64,000 nucleotides of DNA from an archaeon (lineage in GTDB: Archaea > Undinarchaeota > Undinarchaeia > Undinarchaeales > JBDRKL01), in contig JBDRKL010000012.1 of NCBI GenBank assembly GCA_043814055.1, forward strand, positions 89,170 through 153,169. Direction: 5' to 3'. Shown here piece after piece: positions 1,031-43,915 of this stretch (positions are counted from its first letter, which is position 1; each line of letters opens with the position of its first letter). The notes below the pieces were generated by a model. The model was given only the letters and a program-made list of their open reading frames with translations. It was not told the origin of the DNA and ran no database searches. The position numbers and the translations under genes are program-made.

Positions 1031-1253
1031 AAAAGGTTCATAGGATGAGATAACCCCTTTATAAAGAGAACCCTTTATATACCCCCTTACTTATATAGTA
1101 CTTCCCCGCGATGGAGGGGGCTAAATTTTAGTCATGAGGTGGTAATTGAATGGCACCCAGCCCCTGAAGTTGGGGACTGGGTGTATTTCGAAGCGGCGGA
1201 AGTCGCTTCAAAAAAAAGAGGGAGGGAAATGCGGCATTTAATGCCGCTTCGAA

Positions 1254-1895
1254 ATGGCAAAAAAAACAACAAAAAAAAGTACAACAAAACCTGTTAAAAA
1301 ACAGGTTATTAAGAAATCTAAGACAACAAAACCTGTTAAAAGACAATTTATTAAGAAACCCAAGGTTAAGATTGAGAACGTGGTTGCGTCCGCTTCTGTG
1401 GATGCCGAAATAGACTTGGACAAAATTGCTGCAACGCTTCCGAATGCTGAGTATGAGCCGGAGCAGTTCCCAGGGCTTGTCCTAAGACTTACTGACCCCA
1501 AAGCCGCAATACTGGTCTTTTCCTCAGGAAAGATGGTCTGCACAGGCGCAAAAGAAGTAGCTATGATTAAGGTGGCAATAGACAAGACCATCAAGCAGAT
1601 AAAGACAACCGGAACCAAGGTTAGGGGGGAGGCAACCATAACTGTGCAGAATATTGTGGCAAGCTCTGACCTAGGCGTAGAGCTCAACCTGGACAAGATT
1701 GCTTTCTCGCTTCAGAACGCTGAGTTTGAGCCAGAGCAGTTTCCCGGGCTCGTGTTCCGCGTGTTTGACCCTAAAGTGGTGTTCCTGCTGTTCAGGTCTG
1801 GGAAGATAGTGTGCACTGGCGCAAAGAAGAAGATTGATGTTGAGCGCGGAGTCGCAAAGCTGATACAAGAACTCAAAAAGATAAAGGCGCTTTGA
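1254..1895 (+). CDS. tbp: TATA-box binding protein with lysine-rich N-terminal extension
   Basis: Two TBP direct repeats (IENVVASASVD...GKMVCTGAKE and VQNIVASSDLG...GKIVCTGAKK). The first ~40 aa are K-rich (TTKPVKKQVIKKSK/TTKPVKRQFIKKPK). Confidence 0.9.
   Translation: MAKKTTKKSTTKPVKKQVIKKSKTTKPVKRQFIKKPKVKIENVVASASVDAEIDLDKIAATLPNAEYEPEQFPGLVLRLTDPKAAILVFSSGKMVCTGAKEVAMIKVAIDKTIKQIKTTGTKVRGEATITVQNIVASSDLGVELNLDKIAFSLQNAEFEPEQFPGLVFRVFDPKVVFLLFRSGKIVCTGAKKKIDVERGVAKLIQELKKIKAL
1281..1364 (+). repeat. 42-bp x2 tandem duplication inside the TBP 5' coding region, encoding the K-rich tail
   Basis: acaacaaaacctgttaaaaaacaggttattaagaaatctaag followed directly by acaacaaaacctgttaaaagacaatttattaagaaacccaag. 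Confidence 0.8.
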
Positions 1896-25846: not shown

Positions 25847-26033
25847 GGATCCGTAGCCTAGTCTGGATAAGGCGACAGCCTTCTAACAACCGCAAAATCG
25901 GTTGACGCTTTGGGTCGCATTCCGCTTCGCGGAAGCGACCCGGCTCGCGCGTTCGCACGCGCTCGCTCGGTCAATTCGAGCAAGTTGGTTGGAAGCCAGC
26001 TGTAAATCAGGGGTTCAAATCCCCTCGGATCCA
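25847..26033 (+). tRNA. tRNA-Arg (anticodon TCT) with a 112-nt intron at canonical position 37/38
   Basis: Acceptor GGATCCG/CGGATCC, D-arm GCCT-AGTCTGGATA-AGGC, anticodon stem ACAGC (25875-79) with loop CTTCTA|A, 3' stem GCTGT at 25999-26003, T-arm AGGGG-TTCAAAT-CCCCT. Intron ~25886-25997. Confidence 0.8.
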
Positions 26034-26047
26034 CTCAAACCTAAAAT

Positions 26048-26297
26048 GGGCCAGTAGCCTAGTCTGGATACGAGGCGGAAGCAAGCTCCCGCTTGTTTCC
26101 AGCTCCGCTGGAAAAGGCGTCAGGCTTCGGACCAGCGGCAAATTCATTTGCTCTGGAAGGATACCTGAAGACCGAGGGTTCAAAACTCCGCCGCTGCGGA
26201 GGATAGCAGGGGGCTTGGTTAAAACCGAGCATTCCGCCAAAAGCGGAAGCCCCCTATAAAATGCAGCGCCGGACTGAAAATCCCTTCTGGCCCACCA
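26048..26297 (+). tRNA. tRNA-Arg (anticodon TCG) with three apparent introns (D-arm, anticodon 37/38, T-loop) and encoded CCA
   Basis: Acceptor GGGCCAG/CTGGCCC, D-stem GCCT, D-loop AGTCTGGATA, then a 44-nt insert (26071-26114) before AGGC-G. Anticodon stem TCAGG (26120-24) with loop CTTCGG, a ~32-nt insert, then A-CCTGA (26163-68). T-stem GAGGG (26174-78) pairs CCCTT (26282-86) across a ~90-nt insert. Confidence 0.6.
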
Positions 26298-26333
26298 TAA
26301 TCATTAAAACCAAGGAAAACCTACGGGAAAACA

Positions 26334-28496
26334 ATGGCAAAGAAAGAAAAGTCAAAAAAAGCGGTAAAGAAGAAGGTAATGCCGAAAACTCTAAAGAAGA
26401 AGGCAGCCATTAAGAAGAAACTAGTAGTGAAGAAGAAAGCTTTGATTAAGAAAAAAATTGTAGTGAAGAAGAAACCAGTGTCTAAGAAGAAAGTGACACC
26501 AAAGAAGAAGGTTTCAAAACCAAAGAAAGCCCTTGCAAAGAAAAAGCTGGTGGTGAAAAAGAAAGCTGCAAAACCGAAAGCCAAAAAGGCAGCGATTAAG
26601 AAGAAACCGGTAAAAGCAAAGAAAACTGTGAAGAAGACAACAGTTAAGAAGAAGGTTTCAATAAAAAAGAAGGCTGTAAAAGCCAAGAAAAAAGCAGCAA
26701 AACCTAAGAAGCCGCCGGAACCAAAAGAAGAGCAAGAACCTGAGAAACCAAATGAACCTACCTATGACCCGTGGCAGGAACTAAAGAATCAGGCACAAGC
26801 AGCGATTGAAGAAGCTGTGAAGACCGCGAAGATTAAGGTTCCATCAGAGGTAAATTTTGCAACTGCGATTGAAGAGCCGCCAAGCGCCAAGATGGGAGAT
26901 GTGGCTTGTAGCATTGCGTTTTCATTGGGAAGAGCATCTAAGAAGAACCCAAGACAGCTTGCGGAACTGCTCATATCAAAAGTAAAGAAGCCGCCAATTT
27001 TCAAGAAGGTTGCGCTCGCAGGAGCGTACATCAATTTCTTTCTGGATCACGATAAGTTCGCAAAGCACATTCTTGCAAAGGTTGTTGACGACGATTATGG
27101 CCGGGGAGGGAAGAAGGGCGACAAGGTAATGGCAGAGTTCTGCCAGGTTAACACGCACAAGGCGTTTCATATTGGGCATATTAGGGGAACCATACTTGGC
27201 GAGACTATTTCACGCATTTTGGAGTACAGCGGGTATGAAGTTGTGAGAGCAAATTACCAAGGGGACATTGGCTCGCACGTTGCAAAGTGGATGTGGTATT
27301 ATAACAAGTTCAAGAGTGGAGAGAGCCCGCATGGCAAGGGGGAAACCTGGCTTGCTAATATTTACCGGGCTGCCACGCAGGAGCTAAGGGAGCACCCTGA
27401 ATACGAGAAAGAGACCAGCGAGATTCTGCAGAAGCTTGAAGCCGGTGAAGATGAAAAACTGATGCAGGCCTGGCGGGAAACTCGGCAGTGGTCGCTTGAT
27501 GAGTATGAGAAAATTTACAAAGAGCTTGACGTGCGATTTGACCGATATTTCTTTGAGAGCGAGATGGGAAACTCTGGCAAGGAAATCGTGGACGAACTGC
27601 TCAAGAAAAAGATTGCAAAGATGAGCGAGGGCGCTATTGTGATAAATTTGGAGAAGTTTGGGCTCGGAACGTATCTTTTGCTTAAGAGCGACGGGACCGC
27701 GCTTTATTCCACCAAGGACCTGGCGCTTGCAAAGGCTAAGTTTGAAGAGTTTGGAATTGATATTTCACTTTATGTTGTTGGATCAGAGCAGCGGCTTTAT
27801 TTCCAGCAGCTGTTCAAGACGCTTGAGCTGATGGGCTTCAAGCGCGCGAAGAAGTGCCACCATCTTGCTTTTGACCTGATAAGCCTGAAGGAAGGCAAGA
27901 TGTCCTCAAGGGAAGGTACTGCCATTTTATATTCTGAGCTGAGAGACGGGATGTTCAAGAGGGCGCTTGAAGAAGTTATGGAAAGAAATCCGGAGATGGA
28001 CCCGCACGAACAGAAGATCATTGCGAATAAAGTTGCGTACGGCGCGATGAAGTTTGACATACTTAACATAAACAACAACAAGACAATATTCTTTGACTGG
28101 GAAAAAGCACTTGAATTTGAGGGCGAGACCGCGCCTTATGTGCAGTACGCCGGAGTTCGATGCAAGAGAATACTTGAGAAGGCTGGAAAAGTGCCTGAGA
28201 CTGGAAAAGTTGACTTCGGAAAGCTGAAGCTTGCAGCAGAGCACGAGCTTGTCAAGATGCTCGCGAGATTCCCTGGGGTTATTGCCACGGCTGCGAAGGA
28301 GTACAAACCGCACTTCATTGCGAATTATGTATATGGGCTAGCTGACAAGTTTAGCACTTTCTATACCGAGGCGCCTATAATGGACGCGGGAGATAAGGCA
28401 ACAAAAGATGCTCGGCTTATGCTGCTAAGCGCAACATATAAAACCCTTGAGAAAGCCCTATATCTGCTCGGAATAGAAATTCCTGAGCGTATGTAA
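26334..28496 (+). CDS. argS: Arginyl-tRNA synthetase with a ~145-aa polylysine N-terminal extension
   Basis: Class I HIGH motif (AFHIGHIRG), KMSK-like GKMSSREG, and a DALR anticodon-binding C-terminus. The N-terminus is KKK(L/I)VVKKK repeats. The antisense ORF 26321..26686 is an artefact of the repeats. Confidence 0.9.
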   Translation: MAKKEKSKKAVKKKVMPKTLKKKAAIKKKLVVKKKALIKKKIVVKKKPVSKKKVTPKKKVSKPKKALAKKKLVVKKKAAKPKAKKAAIKKKPVKAKKTVKKTTVKKKVSIKKKAVKAKKKAAKPKKPPEPKEEQEPEKPNEPTYDPWQELKNQAQAAIEEAVKTAKIKVPSEVNFATAIEEPPSAKMGDVACSIAFSLGRASKKNPRQLAELLISKVKKPPIFKKVALAGAYINFFLDHDKFAKHILAKVVDDDYGRGGKKGDKVMAEFCQVNTHKAFHIGHIRGTILGETISRILEYSGYEVVRANYQGDIGSHVAKWMWYYNKFKSGESPHGKGETWLANIYRAATQELREHPEYEKETSEILQKLEAGEDEKLMQAWRETRQWSLDEYEKIYKELDVRFDRYFFESEMGNSGKEIVDELLKKKIAKMSEGAIVINLEKFGLGTYLLLKSDGTALYSTKDLALAKAKFEEFGIDISLYVVGSEQRLYFQQLFKTLELMGFKRAKKCHHLAFDLISLKEGKMSSREGTAILYSELRDGMFKRALEEVMERNPEMDPHEQKIIANKVAYGAMKFDILNINNNKTIFFDWEKALEFEGETAPYVQYAGVRCKRILEKAGKVPETGKVDFGKLKLAAEHELVKMLARFPGVIATAAKEYKPHFIANYVYGLADKFSTFYTEAPIMDAGDKATKDARLMLLSATYKTLEKALYLLGIEIPERM

Positions 28497-28511
28497 TAGA
28501 GACAAAAGTGT

Positions 28512-28694
28512 GCCAGGGTAGCCTAGTTTGGATAAGGCGACAGCCTCCTAACAGCGGCAAATTCCGCTGGCAAATTGGGCCGCATTCGGCTTTCAGCCGA
28601 AGCGACCCGGCCCGCTGCGCGGGCAAAAGCCAATAGCGGAAAGCTGATGGAAGCAAGCTGTAAGTCGAGGGTTCAAATCCCTCCTCTGGTGCCA
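28512..28694 (+). tRNA. tRNA-Arg (anticodon CCT) with a 105-nt intron at 37/38 and encoded CCA
   Basis: Acceptor GCCAGGG/CTCTGGT (two G-U pairs), D-arm GCCT-AGTTTGGATA-AGGC, anticodon stem ACAGC with loop CTCCTA|A, 3' stem GCTGT (28657-61), T-arm GAGGG-TTCAAAT-CCCTC. Intron 28551-28655. Confidence 0.75.
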
Positions 28695-28699
28695 TAATA

Positions 28700-29182
28700 A
28701 TGACCTTAGTAGACGAATGCAAAATAAGGGACGCAGCGCCTGAAGATGTTGATGCAATCATAGAACTGTACAAGGAAGCCCTAGTCCCGATATGGGACAG
28801 GATACACAGGCCCTATGACCTTGTTAGGCTAAGGAGAACGCTTGAGAAACGGTTTGAAAAAGGGCATAGCGGTCTGGTGGTTGTTAGGGAGAACAAGATT
28901 ATTGGGTGCGTTCTGACCGCACTGCGAACCGGGAAGATATCCAATAAAAAAGTAATGAAAATATCGTCTCTTCTGGTCAAGCCGGAATTTTTTGGGAAAG
29001 GCTTAGGCCAGGAACTCATTAGAATCGTAGAAGACACAGCAAGGCAAAATGGCGTGGAGCGGATAAGACTGAAGTGCGCCTATAAGAACACTGCACTGGA
29101 GTTCTACAACAAAATGGGTTTTCAGGAAGACCAGATAAGCTTTATCAAGGAGCTAAAAACAAAAAAAGCCCCCGTAGTCTAG
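28700..29182 (+). CDS. GNAT family N-acetyltransferase (160 aa)
   Basis: Acetyl-CoA binding motif region (Q/R)xxGxG/A: FGKGLGQELIRIV. Its last ~15 nt overlap the 5' end of tRNA-Arg(GCG). Confidence 0.7.
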   Translation: MTLVDECKIRDAAPEDVDAIIELYKEALVPIWDRIHRPYDLVRLRRTLEKRFEKGHSGLVVVRENKIIGCVLTALRTGKISNKKVMKISSLLVKPEFFGKGLGQELIRIVEDTARQNGVERIRLKCAYKNTALEFYNKMGFQEDQISFIKELKTKKAPVV

Positions 29183-29241
29183 TTTGGATAGGATGTGAGC
29201 TTGCGGAGCTCGAGGCTTGGGTTCAAATCCCGACGGGGGCA
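29168..29241 (+). tRNA. tRNA-Arg (anticodon GCG), intron-less
   Basis: Acceptor GCCCCCG/CGGGGGC, D-arm GTCT-AGTTTGGATA-GGAT, anticodon arm TGAGC-TTGCGGA-GCTCG, T-arm TTGGG-TTCAAAT-CCCGA, discriminator A. Confidence 0.8.
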
Positions 29242-30717
29242 CTAATGTTTTCTTTTACTAAAACTCTTTTTGAACTCGTGGCGCCAGAGCTTGTCGCGGA
29301 ATGACTTTCGCTTTGAGTTGAAAAAGAAGACTGCAGCTATTATGAGGAGTATTACAACAGCTAAAAGCAGTTTTCCGCCTAAGGAGTCCAGCAACCTGAC
29401 CGGTTTTTCCTCAATTACAAATGCTGCAGATTCGCTCTCCGCAAGCCGCTGTTCATCCACAAGAATCGTGACCTTGAGCAAGTGGTCGCCAGGCGCTTCT
29501 GGGATGTCCCAGACGCTCAACACATCCTTTTTCTCGCCCCTGAGAAGCGTGAATGAATTAAAACCAATTTTATAAGAGTCCATATAGAAGTTTACCGTGC
29601 CCTGAATGTCAATGTTTCCTGTGTTCTCAAGCGCGGCAACCAAATCTACTTGGTCTCCAATGTACGCGGAGCTGGCGTTGAGCTTGAGGCCGGCAAGTAA
29701 TTTCTTTTCTTCCGCGACTGTGAAAGTCTTTGCGCACTTGCCCTTGTTGCCATACTCATCAGTTGCCTCTGCCTTTGCAGTGTACTGGCCGGGAGGGTCC
29801 TGCTTGCTTATCGGGGCTTCAAAAGAGAAGTGGCCGTTGCTATCTGAGATTGCGTCATATGTTGTTGAGATGTCCTCTGAGGTTGTAAACCAGGATTTTG
29901 TGCTTATTTTATCAAGTGGCTCGTCGTGCACATTGTCTATGGTTCCAAAGAGGACCACAACACCGCCTGGGTTTATGTTTGTCTTCTGGAGAGAACACGC
30001 CATCTTGAGCTCATCCGTGACAATGATGTCATCAATGATGGAGGTTCTTGCGTTCCCGTAGTTGTCAAGAAAGTTTGCTTCTAGTGAATATGTTCCAGGA
30101 GGGTCTGACGCTTTGAATGTGTAAGCGTAGGATATGTAGCCGTTCTTAAGGTCTGCGGAATCTGTAACAATGCCACCCAGACCGGACTCCTCAAGGCTTA
30201 TGGACGCTTTGCCCTCTACCGGGAACCCGTGGGCGTTAAGGACTATACTGCTGAACTCAAGGGTTTCGCCTCGGTTGAAGATGCGAGCGTTTATGCTACG
30301 CTCAACAAAGAGGTTCTCGGTTATGGTGAATTTGCCAGAGTAAAAATCTGCATAGGAATCGTAGCCGGTCTTTATCTTTACCTTGATTCTCCAGTCGTCC
30401 GCGGTGTTTATGGTGCTGGTTACGTCCCAGAGGAGTGTGCCCTTGGTGATTAGAGAGAATGAAACTGGGGTGTCTGCGAGGAAGGAGTATATTTTAGTGG
30501 TTATTGGAATTTCCTGGGAAGTAGAGTCGCTCACAGCAAGGAACTGGACCTCAGAGCCTGGAATGTTCTCGCCGAGCTCAATTGTTCCAGTAATCACGAT
30601 TTGGTCGCCGTAGTTGAACGTGCTGTTCGCCCGCGGGTTTGAAACTGTCATTCCAGCGTGAGCCCCGGATAGCACGATTAGAAATAACACTAGGGCGCAT
30701 AATGCAAGCTTTTTCAT
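29242..30717 (-). CDS. Secreted / cell-surface protein with N-terminal signal peptide and C-terminal TM anchor (491 aa)
   Basis: MKKLALCALVLFLIVLSGAHA signal and a C-terminal LLLAVVILLIIAAVFFF anchor followed by a basic tail. Beta-rich repeats suggest Ig/CARDB-like domains. Confidence 0.5.
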   Translation of the reverse strand: MKKLALCALVLFLIVLSGAHAGMTVSNPRANSTFNYGDQIVITGTIELGENIPGSEVQFLAVSDSTSQEIPITTKIYSFLADTPVSFSLITKGTLLWDVTSTINTADDWRIKVKIKTGYDSYADFYSGKFTITENLFVERSINARIFNRGETLEFSSIVLNAHGFPVEGKASISLEESGLGGIVTDSADLKNGYISYAYTFKASDPPGTYSLEANFLDNYGNARTSIIDDIIVTDELKMACSLQKTNINPGGVVVLFGTIDNVHDEPLDKISTKSWFTTSEDISTTYDAISDSNGHFSFEAPISKQDPPGQYTAKAEATDEYGNKGKCAKTFTVAEEKKLLAGLKLNASSAYIGDQVDLVAALENTGNIDIQGTVNFYMDSYKIGFNSFTLLRGEKKDVLSVWDIPEAPGDHLLKVTILVDEQRLAESESAAFVIEEKPVRLLDSLGGKLLLAVVILLIIAAVFFFNSKRKSFRDKLWRHEFKKSFSKRKH

Positions 30718-43818: not shown

Positions 43819-43915
43819 AGCCCCGTGGTGTAGTGGCCAAGCATACGAGCCTCTGGAGGGTTTTAAAACTCAGGGTGAGCTGGTGACAACGGTTCGAATC
43901 CGTTCGGGGCTACCA
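43819..43915 (+). tRNA. tRNA-Gln (anticodon CTG) with a ~21-nt intron at 37/38 and encoded CCA
   Basis: Acceptor AGCCCCG/CGGGGCT, D-arm GTGT-AGTGGCCAA-GCAT, anticodon stem CGAGC with loop CTCTGG|(intron AGGGTTTTAAAACTCAGGGTG)|A, 3' stem GCTGG (one G-G mismatch), T-arm AACGG-TTCGAAT-CCGTT. Confidence 0.6.

What the first reader, a model, noticed from the sequence alone, without database searches (positions are those of the whole stretch)
26334..26790. Polylysine N-terminal extensions on ArgRS (~145 aa) and on TBP (~40 aa, with a 42-bp tandem duplication)
ArgRS begins with about 145 residues of near-pure K/V/A/P repeats (KKKLVVKKKALIKKKIVVKKKPVSKKK...) before the canonical catalytic core. TBP (1254-1380) begins with a similar K-rich tail built from an exact 42-bp tandem duplication. 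Such histone-H1-like tails are not typical of archaeal ArgRS or TBP. They resemble the eukaryotic aaRS N-terminal tRNA-binding appendages and could raise non-specific nucleic-acid affinity. The DNA-level repeats indicate ongoing expansion by slippage.
Basis: seen in the sequence. Interest (0 to 1): 0.55.

Follow-up and report, generated by a model that had tools for sequence, protein, structure and literature searches.

The report
Lysine-rich tails on archaeal ArgRS, TBP
In an uncultured Undinarchaeota-type (DPANN) archaeon, the arginine tRNA-charging enzyme and the TATA-box-binding protein each carry a floppy, strongly positively charged lysine-rich tail that is almost certainly translated; such tails are described as eukaryote-specific on tRNA synthetases, and here they most likely act as a non-specific grip on tRNA or DNA, which is untested.

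Summary
Both tails exist where stated. ArgRS (26334-28496) has a 144-aa N-terminal extension with 66 K, no R and net charge +59. TBP (1254-1895) has a 37-aa extension with 15 K. One detail is wrong: the 42-bp TBP duplication is 88% identical (37/42), not exact.

The tails are very likely translated. No usable in-frame start codon lies downstream. The ArgRS frame is the only forward frame free of stops in four orthologs. A TATA-like box lies 23-24 nt before the start ATG in two tailed and two tail-less orthologs. One tailed ortholog was assembled identically from three samples.

The organism is Undinarchaeota-like. K-rich tails on TBP are clade-wide: 37 protein clusters, each with its own repeat unit, and two more with the tail at the C-terminus. 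ArgRS tails occur in two sublineages only and in none of 149 other representative ArgRS clusters. AlphaFold2 gives pLDDT below 50 for the ArgRS tail and about 57-59, with no secondary structure, for the TBP tail. No homolog of the tail was found.

Best reading: convergently evolved polycationic appendages that bind nucleic acid non-specifically, analogous but not homologous to the lysine-rich tRNA-binding extensions of eukaryotic synthetases. The function is inferred. I found no report of this. Interest is moderate.

The parts
26334..26732 (+). ArgRS tail, lysine-rich repeat region (aa 1-133; 49% K, 13% A, 12% V, 7.5% P; degenerate 18-nt / KKKxxx period)
   Evidence: AF2 pLDDT 27-41. No Pfam hit at E<=1.
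26733..26765 (+). P/E-rich linker (PEPKEEQEPEKPNEPTY region) between the K-rich tail and the folded Add1 domain. A similar acidic/proline linker occurs in the three tailed orthologs.
   Evidence: pLDDT rises above 50 from about aa 140.
26766..28496 (+). Canonical ArgRS core (Arg_tRNA_synt_N, class I catalytic domain, DALR), starting at the invariant DPW
   Evidence: AF2 core pLDDT is mostly 85-96.
26303..26309 (+). TATA-like box ATTAAAA, 24 nt before the ATG at 26334. The spacing is 23-24 nt in one other tailed ortholog (L082) and in two tail-less orthologs (L081, L002).
   Evidence: Consensus reading only; there is no transcript data.
26048..26297 (+). Context: tRNA-Arg(UCG) gene with three putative introns. 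It ends 36 nt before the ArgRS ATG and bounds the space available for the promoter.
   Evidence: Removing 26071-26113, 26132-26163 and 26185-26280 gives a sequence that ARAGORN calls tRNA-Arg(tcg).
1254..1364 (+). TBP lysine-rich N-terminal tail (aa 1-37; 15 K, 1 R, no D/E)
   Evidence: AF2 pLDDT 57-59 with no secondary structure.
1281..1322 (+). First copy of the 42-bp (14-aa, TTKPVKKQVIKKSK) tandem duplication inside the TBP tail
1323..1364 (+). Second copy (TTKPVKRQFIKKPK), 37/42 identical to the first. It is absent from the nearest relative's TBP (L088).
1365..1895 (+). TBP core (two TBP repeats). It has no acidic C-terminal tail.

Best explanation
The two tails are translated, intrinsically disordered polycationic appendages. 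They are fused in frame to the N-termini of two nucleic-acid-binding housekeeping proteins of an Undinarchaeota-like DPANN archaeon. They arose and keep turning over by tandem duplication of short K-rich units. Selection acts on their charge and composition, not on their sequence.

Inferred mechanism: the tails act as non-specific electrostatic tethers for the phosphate backbone. On ArgRS, a +59 tail sits directly N-terminal to the Add1 domain, which contacts the tRNA D-loop. It would raise the encounter rate with tRNA and lower the apparent Km for it. This matters more for ArgRS than for most synthetases, because ArgRS needs bound tRNA even to activate arginine. On TBP, a +16 tail would add affinity and residence time on DNA flanking the TATA box, or help one-dimensional search.

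Shown here: existence, near-certain translation, predicted disorder, phylogenetic distribution and mode of evolution. Inferred: nucleic-acid binding and its kinetic consequence.
For: Translation.
- TBP has no in-frame ATG/GTG/TTG between codon 1 and codon 43, which lies inside the conserved ENVVAS strand. The frame closes 4 codons upstream of the ATG.
- ArgRS has no in-frame start between codon 99 and codon 162, which lies inside the first Add1 helix and beyond invariant W147. Any start choice therefore leaves at least 46 tail residues.
- Tail-less orthologs start M-x(1-4)-DPW. All four tailed genes have lost that Met.
- The ArgRS frame is the only forward frame without stops in all four tailed orthologs; the other two frames have 2-16 stops.
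- The ATTAAAA/TATAAAA box lies 23-24 nt before the ATG in two tailed (window, L082) and two tail-less (L081, L002) orthologs.
- 'MAKK' is the conserved start of most TBP tails.

Not an artefact. P0004 is identical in three independent samples, and the other tailed orthologs come from independent assemblies of further samples.

Selection for a basic tail.
- 37 TBP clusters carry tails that are about 37% K, although their sequences cannot be aligned and their repeat units differ.
- Two Undinarchaeota TBPs with a short N-terminus have a K-rich C-terminal tail instead. This was verified in their DNA.
- P0004 and P0005 keep frame, length (105 aa in both) and K content (46 and 47 K in the first 106-107 residues). 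Their tails are only 64% identical, against 90.6% for the core.

Specificity. Apart from ArgRS and TBP, none of the ORFs in the window and eleven related loci has a K-rich terminus. Only 1 of 1,143 ORFs in 1.17 Mb of control loci reaches 12 K in 25 residues.

Disorder. AF2 gives pLDDT below 50 for ArgRS aa 1-139, and 57-59 with coil for the TBP tail, against above 85-95 for both cores.

Precedent. K-rich, high-pI, disordered N-terminal extensions of eukaryotic LysRS, AspRS and others bind tRNA non-specifically (PMC6213541, PMC8319005). That ArgRS requires tRNA for Arg activation, and that Add1 contacts the D-loop, is established knowledge of the family. The yeast and Pyrococcus horikoshii ArgRS structures 1F7U and 2ZUE were retrieved as homologs.
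Against: No binding, kinetic, transcript or peptide data exist for any of these proteins.

The ArgRS tail is dispensable in evolution. The closest tail-less relative (P0003, 64% identical, own promoter, no upstream K-rich frame) and most Undinarchaeota ArgRS lack it.

AspRS, ThrRS, MCM, topoisomerase VI, SMC and RNase HII in the same window have no tail, so it is not a general strategy for nucleic-acid-binding proteins.

In P0004/P0005 the tail shows 37 non-synonymous against 18 synonymous codon differences. This is compatible with weak constraint.

Gene callers disagree on the start in the P0005 cluster, giving 679, 577 and 571 aa. In that lineage a TTG or ATG near DPW exists.
Confidence: 0.55

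Rival explanations
1. The tails are translated but functionally neutral low-complexity expansions. Replication slippage or unequal recombination in A-rich codon runs adds K-rich units at a tolerant terminus, and they persist by drift.
For: Length and sequence turn over fast and repeat units are lineage-specific. The ArgRS tail has a patchy distribution, with a tail-less sister lineage. The tail of P0004/P0005 has a high non-synonymous to synonymous ratio. There is no conserved motif and no homolog.
Against: Drift does not explain why essentially every TBP of the clade keeps a basic tail, or why two lineages carry it at the opposite terminus instead. It does not explain why composition stays at 37-49% K with almost no acidic residues. 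It does not explain why only two nucleic-acid-binding proteins, out of the ORFs sampled in this clade, are affected. Nor does it explain why the ancestral start Met was lost in all four tailed ArgRS genes.
Confidence: 0.22
2. The tails are functional, but not primarily as binders of the substrate nucleic acid. They might tether the protein to ribosomes or rRNA for channeling. They might drive condensate or complex formation, act as an RNA-dependent folding or solubility aid, or serve as lysine-acetylation targets.
For: The tails are polycationic and predicted disordered. A GNAT acetyltransferase gene lies 204 nt downstream of ArgRS (28700-29182). RNA-dependent chaperoning has been proposed for the human LysRS appendage (PMC6213541). 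Archaeal ArgRS takes part in synthetase and ribosome-stalk interactions according to the abstract of PMC10817482.
Against: The GNAT adjacency is not conserved in relatives. Nothing in the sequence points to a particular partner. All these roles would still operate through polyanion binding.
Confidence: 0.13
3. The start codons are mis-annotated. Transcription and translation begin downstream, and the K-rich stretches are A-rich 5' leaders that happen to be open in frame.
For: A-rich, T-poor DNA tends to stay open: the reverse strand of the tail also has a 121-aa ORF. For the P0005 ortholog, JGI and one NCBI record-aa and 571-aa products without the tail. In P0004/P0005 the upstream tRNA ends 8 nt before the tail's ATG, leaving no room for a separate promoter.
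Against: The window has no start codon that would give an intact Add1 domain or an intact first TBP strand. In P0004/P0005 the downstream ATG would delete the invariant Trp; the TTG call (LIPDPW) would keep it. Only the ArgRS frame is open in all four orthologs. Promoter spacing matches the tail's ATG. The MAKK start is conserved.
Confidence: 0.06
4. The repeat tracts are assembly artefacts of this metagenome-assembled genome.
For: Low-complexity repeats can be mis-assembled, and the window's own reads could not be examined.
Against: The units are only 60-88% alike, so they are not collapsible perfect repeats. Orthologous tails are found in independent assemblies from ENA, JGI, NCBI, Logan and Tara. 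P0004 is identical in three samples.
Confidence: 0.02

Closest known systems
Lysine-rich N-terminal tRNA-interacting extensions of eukaryotic aminoacyl-tRNA synthetases (human/yeast LysRS, yeast AspRS, and others; PMC6213541, PMC8319005)
   Same: An N-terminal appendage on a synthetase core that most prokaryotic orthologs lack. It has high lysine content and pI and is disordered when free. The presumed role is non-specific tRNA capture in cis.
   Different: There is no sequence homology. The host is a class Ia ArgRS (Add1 domain), not a class IIb OB-fold enzyme. The tail is 144 aa against roughly 20-70 aa. It is much richer in K (46-49%) and punctuated by prolines, with a KKKxxx hexad in place of the helical KxxxK(K/R)xxK-type motif (motif from my own knowledge). 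It occurs in an archaeon. Function is untested.
C-terminal domain of linker histone H1 and SPKK-type basic tails
   Same: A K/A/P-rich, highly basic, disordered tail (K 49%, A 13%, P 7.5% in aa 1-133). One TPKK motif lies at aa 55.
   Different: There is no winged-helix globular domain. The tail is valine-rich (12%). It is attached to an enzyme and to a transcription factor, not to a chromatin architectural protein.
Lysine-rich tails on prokaryotic nucleic-acid-binding proteins: tailed Asgard histones (bioRxiv 10.64898/2026.07.02.735847), the A/K-rich uS19 C-terminus of Parcubacteria (PMC9297842), and actinobacterial HU (HupB/HupS) and topoisomerase I tails (own knowledge, not checked here)
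   Same: Lineage-specific basic low-complexity termini added to otherwise conserved DNA- or RNA-binding proteins of prokaryotes. They are often built from short repeats.
   Different: The host proteins differ. I found no report of such a tail on an archaeal ArgRS or TBP.
Terminal tails of other TBPs (acidic C-terminal tail of many archaeal TBPs; variable Q-rich N-terminal domain of eukaryotic TBP)
   Same: A variable, non-conserved terminal extension on a conserved two-repeat saddle.
   Different: The charge is opposite to the acidic C-tails seen in other archaeal TBPs (for example P0180, P0197, P0204). There is no similarity to the eukaryotic N-terminal domain.

Membership tests
Arginyl-tRNA synthetase (class Ia) | Add1 N-terminal domain, Rossmann catalytic domain with HIGH motif, and DALR anticodon-binding domain | tested here: met
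   Pfam PF03485, PF00750 and PF05746, E 2e-18 to 5e-59. FHIGH is invariant. Matches to solved ArgRS structures 2ZUE, 5YYM and 1F7U start at aa 154 or later. The AF2 core is confident.
Archaeal TATA-box-binding protein | Two tandem TBP repeats forming the saddle | tested here: met
   PF00352 twice, E 2e-62. AF2 pLDDT is above 93 for the core. TBP-MCM synteny is shared with relatives.
Eukaryotic-type lysine-rich tRNA-interacting aaRS extension | N-terminal appendage absent from most orthologs; high K content and pI | tested here: met
   144 aa, 66 K, net +59. Absent from 116 of the 120 nearest 90%-identity clusters and from 149 of 150 representatives.
Eukaryotic-type lysine-rich tRNA-interacting aaRS extension | Intrinsically disordered when free | tested here: met
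   Prediction only: AF2 pLDDT below 50 for aa 1-139.
Eukaryotic-type lysine-rich tRNA-interacting aaRS extension | Common descent or sequence motif shared with the LysRS/AspRS extensions | tested here: not met
   No Pfam hit at E<=1. No hit in 5.8 billion proteins at E<=1e-3 with the tail alone. The host is a class Ia enzyme. The repeat is a proline-punctuated KKKxxx unit.
Eukaryotic-type lysine-rich tRNA-interacting aaRS extension | Binds tRNA non-specifically and lowers Km for tRNA | not testable with these tools
   Needs gel shifts and aminoacylation kinetics with and without aa 1-144.
Linker histone H1/H5 | Winged-helix globular domain (PF00538) flanked by basic tails | tested here: not met
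   No such domain in either protein. Only the composition resembles the H1 C-terminal domain.
Structured tRNA-binding appended domains (Trbp111 / EMAPII / Arc1p OB fold) | Folded OB domain detectable by profile | tested here: not met
   No Pfam family in aa 1-153. The region is predicted unstructured.

The most novel reading that the evidence does not exclude
Undinarchaeota have convergently evolved an architecture described as eukaryote-specific: a disordered polylysine nucleic-acid-capturing appendage on a tRNA synthetase. They also carry a clade-wide basic tail on TBP that can sit at either terminus. If so, charge-based tethering of core transcription and translation factors would be an adaptive trait of this small-genome lineage. 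It might, for example, compensate for low tRNA or factor concentrations, or for missing accessory factors. The tight ArgRS / tRNA-Arg gene island would be part of the same arginine-decoding module.
Probability: 0.3. Interest if true: 0.6.

Novelty: new variant of a known kind. Interest (0 to 1): 0.42.

Why it matters
Lysine-rich disordered tRNA-binding appendages are described as absent from prokaryotic synthetases (PMC6213541). A prokaryotic case that apparently arose at least twice in one archaeal phylum would show the solution is easy to evolve. It would also give a simple system for testing what such tails do to tRNA capture.

A basic tail that is near-universal on the TBP of a whole archaeal lineage, and that moved to the other terminus in some members, is a testable hint that promoter recognition is tuned electrostatically there.

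In practice, public annotations of the same ArgRS gene disagree by more than 100 residues (571 to 697 aa). The analysis therefore also tells annotators which start to trust.

Tried and rejected
- Searching 5.8 billion proteins with the tail alone gave no hit at E<=1e-3, because composition correction removes everything. A 'which other proteins carry this tail' survey by homology is therefore not possible.
- Pfam on the tail found nothing at E<=1.
- The GTDB species-representative scan with an ArgRS alignment returned only three Undinarchaeota loci, all tail-less.
- The exact look-up of the window's ArgRS returned no contig, so the rest of the 153-kb contig could not be read and a whole-proteome survey was not possible. 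I substituted ORF scans of the window, eleven related loci and 1.17 Mb of control loci.
- Fusion with a neighbouring K-rich gene: rejected. The tail-less relative L081 has an acidic OB-fold gene upstream, not a basic one. The syntenic relatives have unrelated 180-aa and 209-aa ORFs.
- The F-rich 121-aa ORF on the reverse strand (26321-26686): rejected as the complement of AAR codons.
- Literature searches on archaeal aaRS extensions, basic TBP extensions, Undinarchaeota, and DPANN plus lysine-rich found no description of these tails.
- The NJ tree is crude: midpoint-rooted and without support values. 'Two gains' versus 'one gain plus losses' stays open.
Full report
WHAT IS THERE

The ORF 26334-28496 (+) encodes a 720-aa arginyl-tRNA synthetase. 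Pfam finds Arg_tRNA_synt_N at aa 154-237, the class I catalytic domain at aa 258-589 and DALR at aa 603-720, and nothing in aa 1-153. Every solved ArgRS aligns only from aa 154 onward. Tail-less orthologs begin M-x(1-4)-DPW, and that DPW lies at aa 145-147 here, with W147 invariant. The extension is therefore 144 aa.

The extension has 66 K, 17 A, 16 V, 13 P, 7 E, no R and no D, for a net charge of +59. The other ORFs of the window average 8.6% K, which gives a binomial P of about 4e-32. The DNA shows a degenerate 18-nt / 36-nt period (KKKxxx units) with 60-80% identity between units.

TBP (1254-1895, 213 aa) has a 37-aa tail with 15 K and 1 R and no acidic residue, ahead of the Pfam TBP repeats. 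None of the other 65 ORFs in the window has a K-rich terminus. These include AspRS, ThrRS, MCM, topoisomerase VI, SMC and RNase HII.

ARE THE TAILS TRANSLATED?

Five lines of evidence argue against one.

- In TBP, the first in-frame ATG/GTG/TTG after codon 1 is GTG at codon 43, inside the conserved ENVVAS strand. The frame closes four codons upstream of the ATG.
- In ArgRS, there is no in-frame start codon between codon 99 and codon 162. Codon 162 lies within the first helix of Add1, after the invariant Trp. Any start choice therefore leaves at least 46 tail residues, and an ATG-only choice leaves at least 129.
- All four tail-bearing ArgRS genes (the window, P0002, P0004, P0005) have lost the Met that starts tail-less orthologs.
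- In all four, the ArgRS frame is the only forward frame free of stops across the tail. The other two frames carry 2-16 stops.
- A TATA-like box lies 23-24 nt before the annotated ATG in two tailed genes (window ATTAAAA, L082 CTTAAAA) and in two tail-less genes (L081 TATAAAA, L002 TTTAAAA). This matches the geometry seen at other apparently leaderless genes of the window.

Most TBP tails of the clade start MAKK.

Annotation pipelines disagree. The P0005 gene exists in public data at four lengths:
- 697 aa, which reads through the upstream tRNA and is spurious;
- 679 aa, starting at the tail's ATG;
- 577 aa, starting at a TTG;
- 571 aa, starting at a Met just after the invariant Trp.

The question is therefore open in public records. 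The window's own sequence offers no short alternative.

NOT AN ARTEFACT

P0004 is encoded identically in three independent samples. The other tailed orthologs come from independent assemblies of further samples, held in ENA, JGI, NCBI, Logan and Tara. The repeat units are too diverged to collapse or expand in assembly. The window's own reads could not be checked.

WHO HAS THEM

The window's ArgRS and TBP are NCBI MFH1425000.1 and MFH1424974.1 ('MAG: archaeon', 153-kb contig). Their nearest named relatives are Candidatus Undinarchaeales, Undinarchaeota and Naiadarchaeales.

ArgRS tails are rare and patchy.
- Four of the 120 nearest 90%-identity clusters carry one.
- Among the 150 best 50%-identity representatives out of 1.84 billion proteins, only the one standing for this clade has one. 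No other has a K-rich N-terminus.
- In a crude NJ tree of the core, the window and P0002 are sisters, tail-less P0003 is their sister, and P0004/P0005 sit on another branch next to tail-less lineages. This means either two gains or repeated loss.
- The locus of P0003 has no K-rich frame upstream and has its own promoter.

TBP tails are the rule in the clade.
- 37 clusters with 54-93% core identity have 13-66-aa tails averaging 37% K. Other archaeal TBPs have 5-10 residues before the core.
- Two Undinarchaeota TBPs with a short N-terminus (P0164, P0176) carry a 28-37-aa K-rich tail at the C-terminus. Their DNA confirms that no K-rich frame lies upstream.
- The genome whose ArgRS lacks a tail probably still has a tailed TBP: P0155 and P0003 share the same longest-contig length, 223,599 bp.
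- In 1.17 Mb of control loci from other archaea and bacteria, only 1 of 1,143 ORFs reaches 12 K in 25 residues.

HOW THEY EVOLVE

Each TBP tail has its own tandem unit, for example KKPDVKSS x5, KKVTQ x3, TKAKKAT and TKTKTS, with periods of 5-16 aa.

The window's 14-aa duplication is missing from its closest relative (L088). That relative has 93% core amino-acid identity, 80.5% nucleotide identity and 53% identity at third codon positions. Only the first eight tail residues are shared. The two copies differ by 12%, less than the 19.5% nucleotide divergence of the TBP core between the two genomes, so the duplication probably post-dates the split but is not fresh.

P0004 and P0005 show how the ArgRS tail changes:

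| Region | Amino-acid identity | Synonymous codon differences | Non-synonymous codon differences |
|---|---|---|---|
| Core | 90.6% | 147 | 54 |
| Tail | 64% | 18 | 37 |

Frame, length (105 aa in both) and lysine count (46 and 47 in the first 106-107 residues) are nevertheless kept. All four ArgRS tails end in a P/E-rich linker. The pattern is fast sequence turnover with conserved charge and composition.

STRUCTURE AND HOMOLOGY

AlphaFold2 gives pLDDT 27-41 for ArgRS aa 1-139 and mostly 85-96 for the core. For TBP it gives 57-59 and no secondary structure for the tail, and above 93 for the core. The tail has no Pfam match at E<=1 and no detectable homolog.

MOST LIKELY MECHANISM (INFERRED)

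The tails are polycationic disordered tethers that bind the phosphate backbone non-specifically.

For ArgRS, the tail is attached to Add1, the domain that reads the tRNA D-loop. ArgRS needs bound tRNA even for amino-acid activation. Both points are established knowledge of the family; the yeast and Pyrococcus horikoshii ArgRS structures 1F7U and 2ZUE were retrieved as homologs. A tail that raises the tRNA on-rate, or lowers Km, would therefore speed both steps of the reaction.

For TBP, a +16 tail would add contacts to DNA flanking the TATA box. The fact that the tail can sit at either terminus fits a position-tolerant electrostatic role.

The precedent is the K-rich, high-pI, disordered extensions of eukaryotic LysRS, AspRS and others. 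These bind tRNA non-specifically and are described as absent from prokaryotic counterparts (PMC6213541; see also PMC8319005).

RIVALS

- Neutral low-complexity growth (0.22). It fits the turnover and the dispensability of the ArgRS tail. It does not fit the clade-wide, charge-conserved and relocatable TBP tail, or the restriction to two nucleic-acid binders.
- Another polyanion-dependent role (0.13), such as ribosome tethering, condensates, RNA-assisted folding or acetylation control. A GNAT gene lies next door, but it is not conserved in relatives.
- Mis-annotated starts (0.06).
- Assembly artefact (0.02).

COMPARISON WITH WHAT IS KNOWN

The tails probably work like the eukaryotic aaRS lysine-rich appendages and resemble the histone H1 C-terminal domain in composition. 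They are members of neither family. They have no homology, a different host enzyme class, no helical KxxxK motif and no winged-helix domain (see the membership table). I found no published description of such tails on archaeal ArgRS or TBP. The Undinarchaeota genome paper does not mention lysine, TATA, histone, arginyl or extension. I rate this a new variant of a known kind, of moderate interest.

SIDE OBSERVATIONS

ArgRS sits in a 3.4-kb island with four tRNA-Arg genes:

| Gene | Coordinates | Feature |
|---|---|---|
| tRNA-Arg(UCU) | 25847-26033 | 114-nt intron |
| tRNA-Arg(UCG) | 26048-26297 | three putative introns |
| ArgRS | 26334-28496 | |
| tRNA-Arg(CCU) | 28512-28694 | 105-nt intron |
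| tRNA-Arg(GCG) | 29168-29242 | |

This rests. The order UCG-ArgRS-CCU is conserved in tailed and tail-less relatives. In P0004/P0005 the tRNA ends only 8 nt before the ArgRS ATG, which suggests co-transcription and release by tRNA processing.

A 13-nt perfect inverted repeat (1185-1197 / 1243-1255) overlaps the TBP start codon.

Noticed in passing
window 25847-29242; relatives L083, L086, L002, L003, L082: ArgRS lies inside an island of four tRNA-Arg genes: UCU 25847-26033, UCG 26048-26297, CCU 28512-28694 and GCG 29168-29242. The order tRNA-Arg(UCG)-ArgRS-tRNA-Arg(CCU) is conserved in Undinarchaeota relatives with and without the tail. In L083/L086 the upstream tRNA ends 8 nt before the ArgRS ATG, which suggests co-transcription and release by tRNA processing. 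A literature search found no description of this.
   Followed up: partly
window 26048-26297, 25847-26033, 28512-28694: The tRNA-Arg genes are rich in introns. UCG appears to be split by three intervening segments (26071-26113 in the D region, 26132-26163 at the anticodon loop, 26185-26280 in the T-loop). It is missed by both ARAGORN and Rfam, and in-silico removal of the segments gives a clean tRNA-Arg(tcg). UCU has a 114-nt intron and CCU a 105-nt intron. The same tRNAs in relatives are intron-free.
   Followed up: partly
window 43819-43915: tRNA-Pro(UGG) is 97 nt long according to ARAGORN and 94 nt according to Rfam, so it probably contains an intron too.
   Followed up: no
window 28700-29182: A GNAT-family acetyltransferase gene sits between tRNA-Arg(CCU) and tRNA-Arg(GCG), 204 nt downstream of the lysine-rich ArgRS. 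Its 3' end overlaps the tRNA-Arg(GCG) gene by 15 nt. The adjacency is not conserved in relatives.
   Followed up: partly
window 1185-1255: A 13-nt perfect inverted repeat (ATTTCGAAGCGGC / GCCGCTTCGAAAT, 45 nt apart) has its second arm covering the first two bases of the TBP start codon. Two smaller competing hairpins (1186-1213 and 1231-1247) are also present. This could be a regulatory alternative structure in the TBP leader or promoter.
   Followed up: no
cluster of P0005 (P0244, P0246-P0251): The same ArgRS gene is annotated in public data as 697, 679, 577 and 571 aa. The 697-aa call translates through the upstream tRNA-Arg gene. The Undinarchaeales MAG ERR594346 U_76725 has it as two entries: a 496-aa ArgRS and a 176-aa 'hypothetical protein' that holds the tail.
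   Followed up: yes
L081 9437-9913: In the tail-less relative, the gene just upstream of ArgRS encodes an OB-fold protein (weak tRNA_anti-codon hit) with a roughly 70-aa acidic A/E/P-rich repetitive C-terminal tail. Its charge is opposite to that of the tails studied here.
   Followed up: no
P0123, P0124, P0127, P0154 (TBP homologs, 275-289 aa): Some TBP homologs from metagenomes carry a third TBP repeat after the normal two-repeat core.
   Followed up: no
P0384 (836-aa ArgRS representative): One distant ArgRS has an N-terminal extension of about 270 aa that is not lysine-rich. By eye it resembles a PheRS-type B3/B4 domain, but it was not scanned against any domain library. If so, it would be a different way of adding an N-terminal module to ArgRS.
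   Followed up: no
window 1-64000: GC skew is positive in 31 of 32 2-kb bins, and cumulative skew rises steadily to 5.45. Most genes are on the + strand.
   Followed up: no
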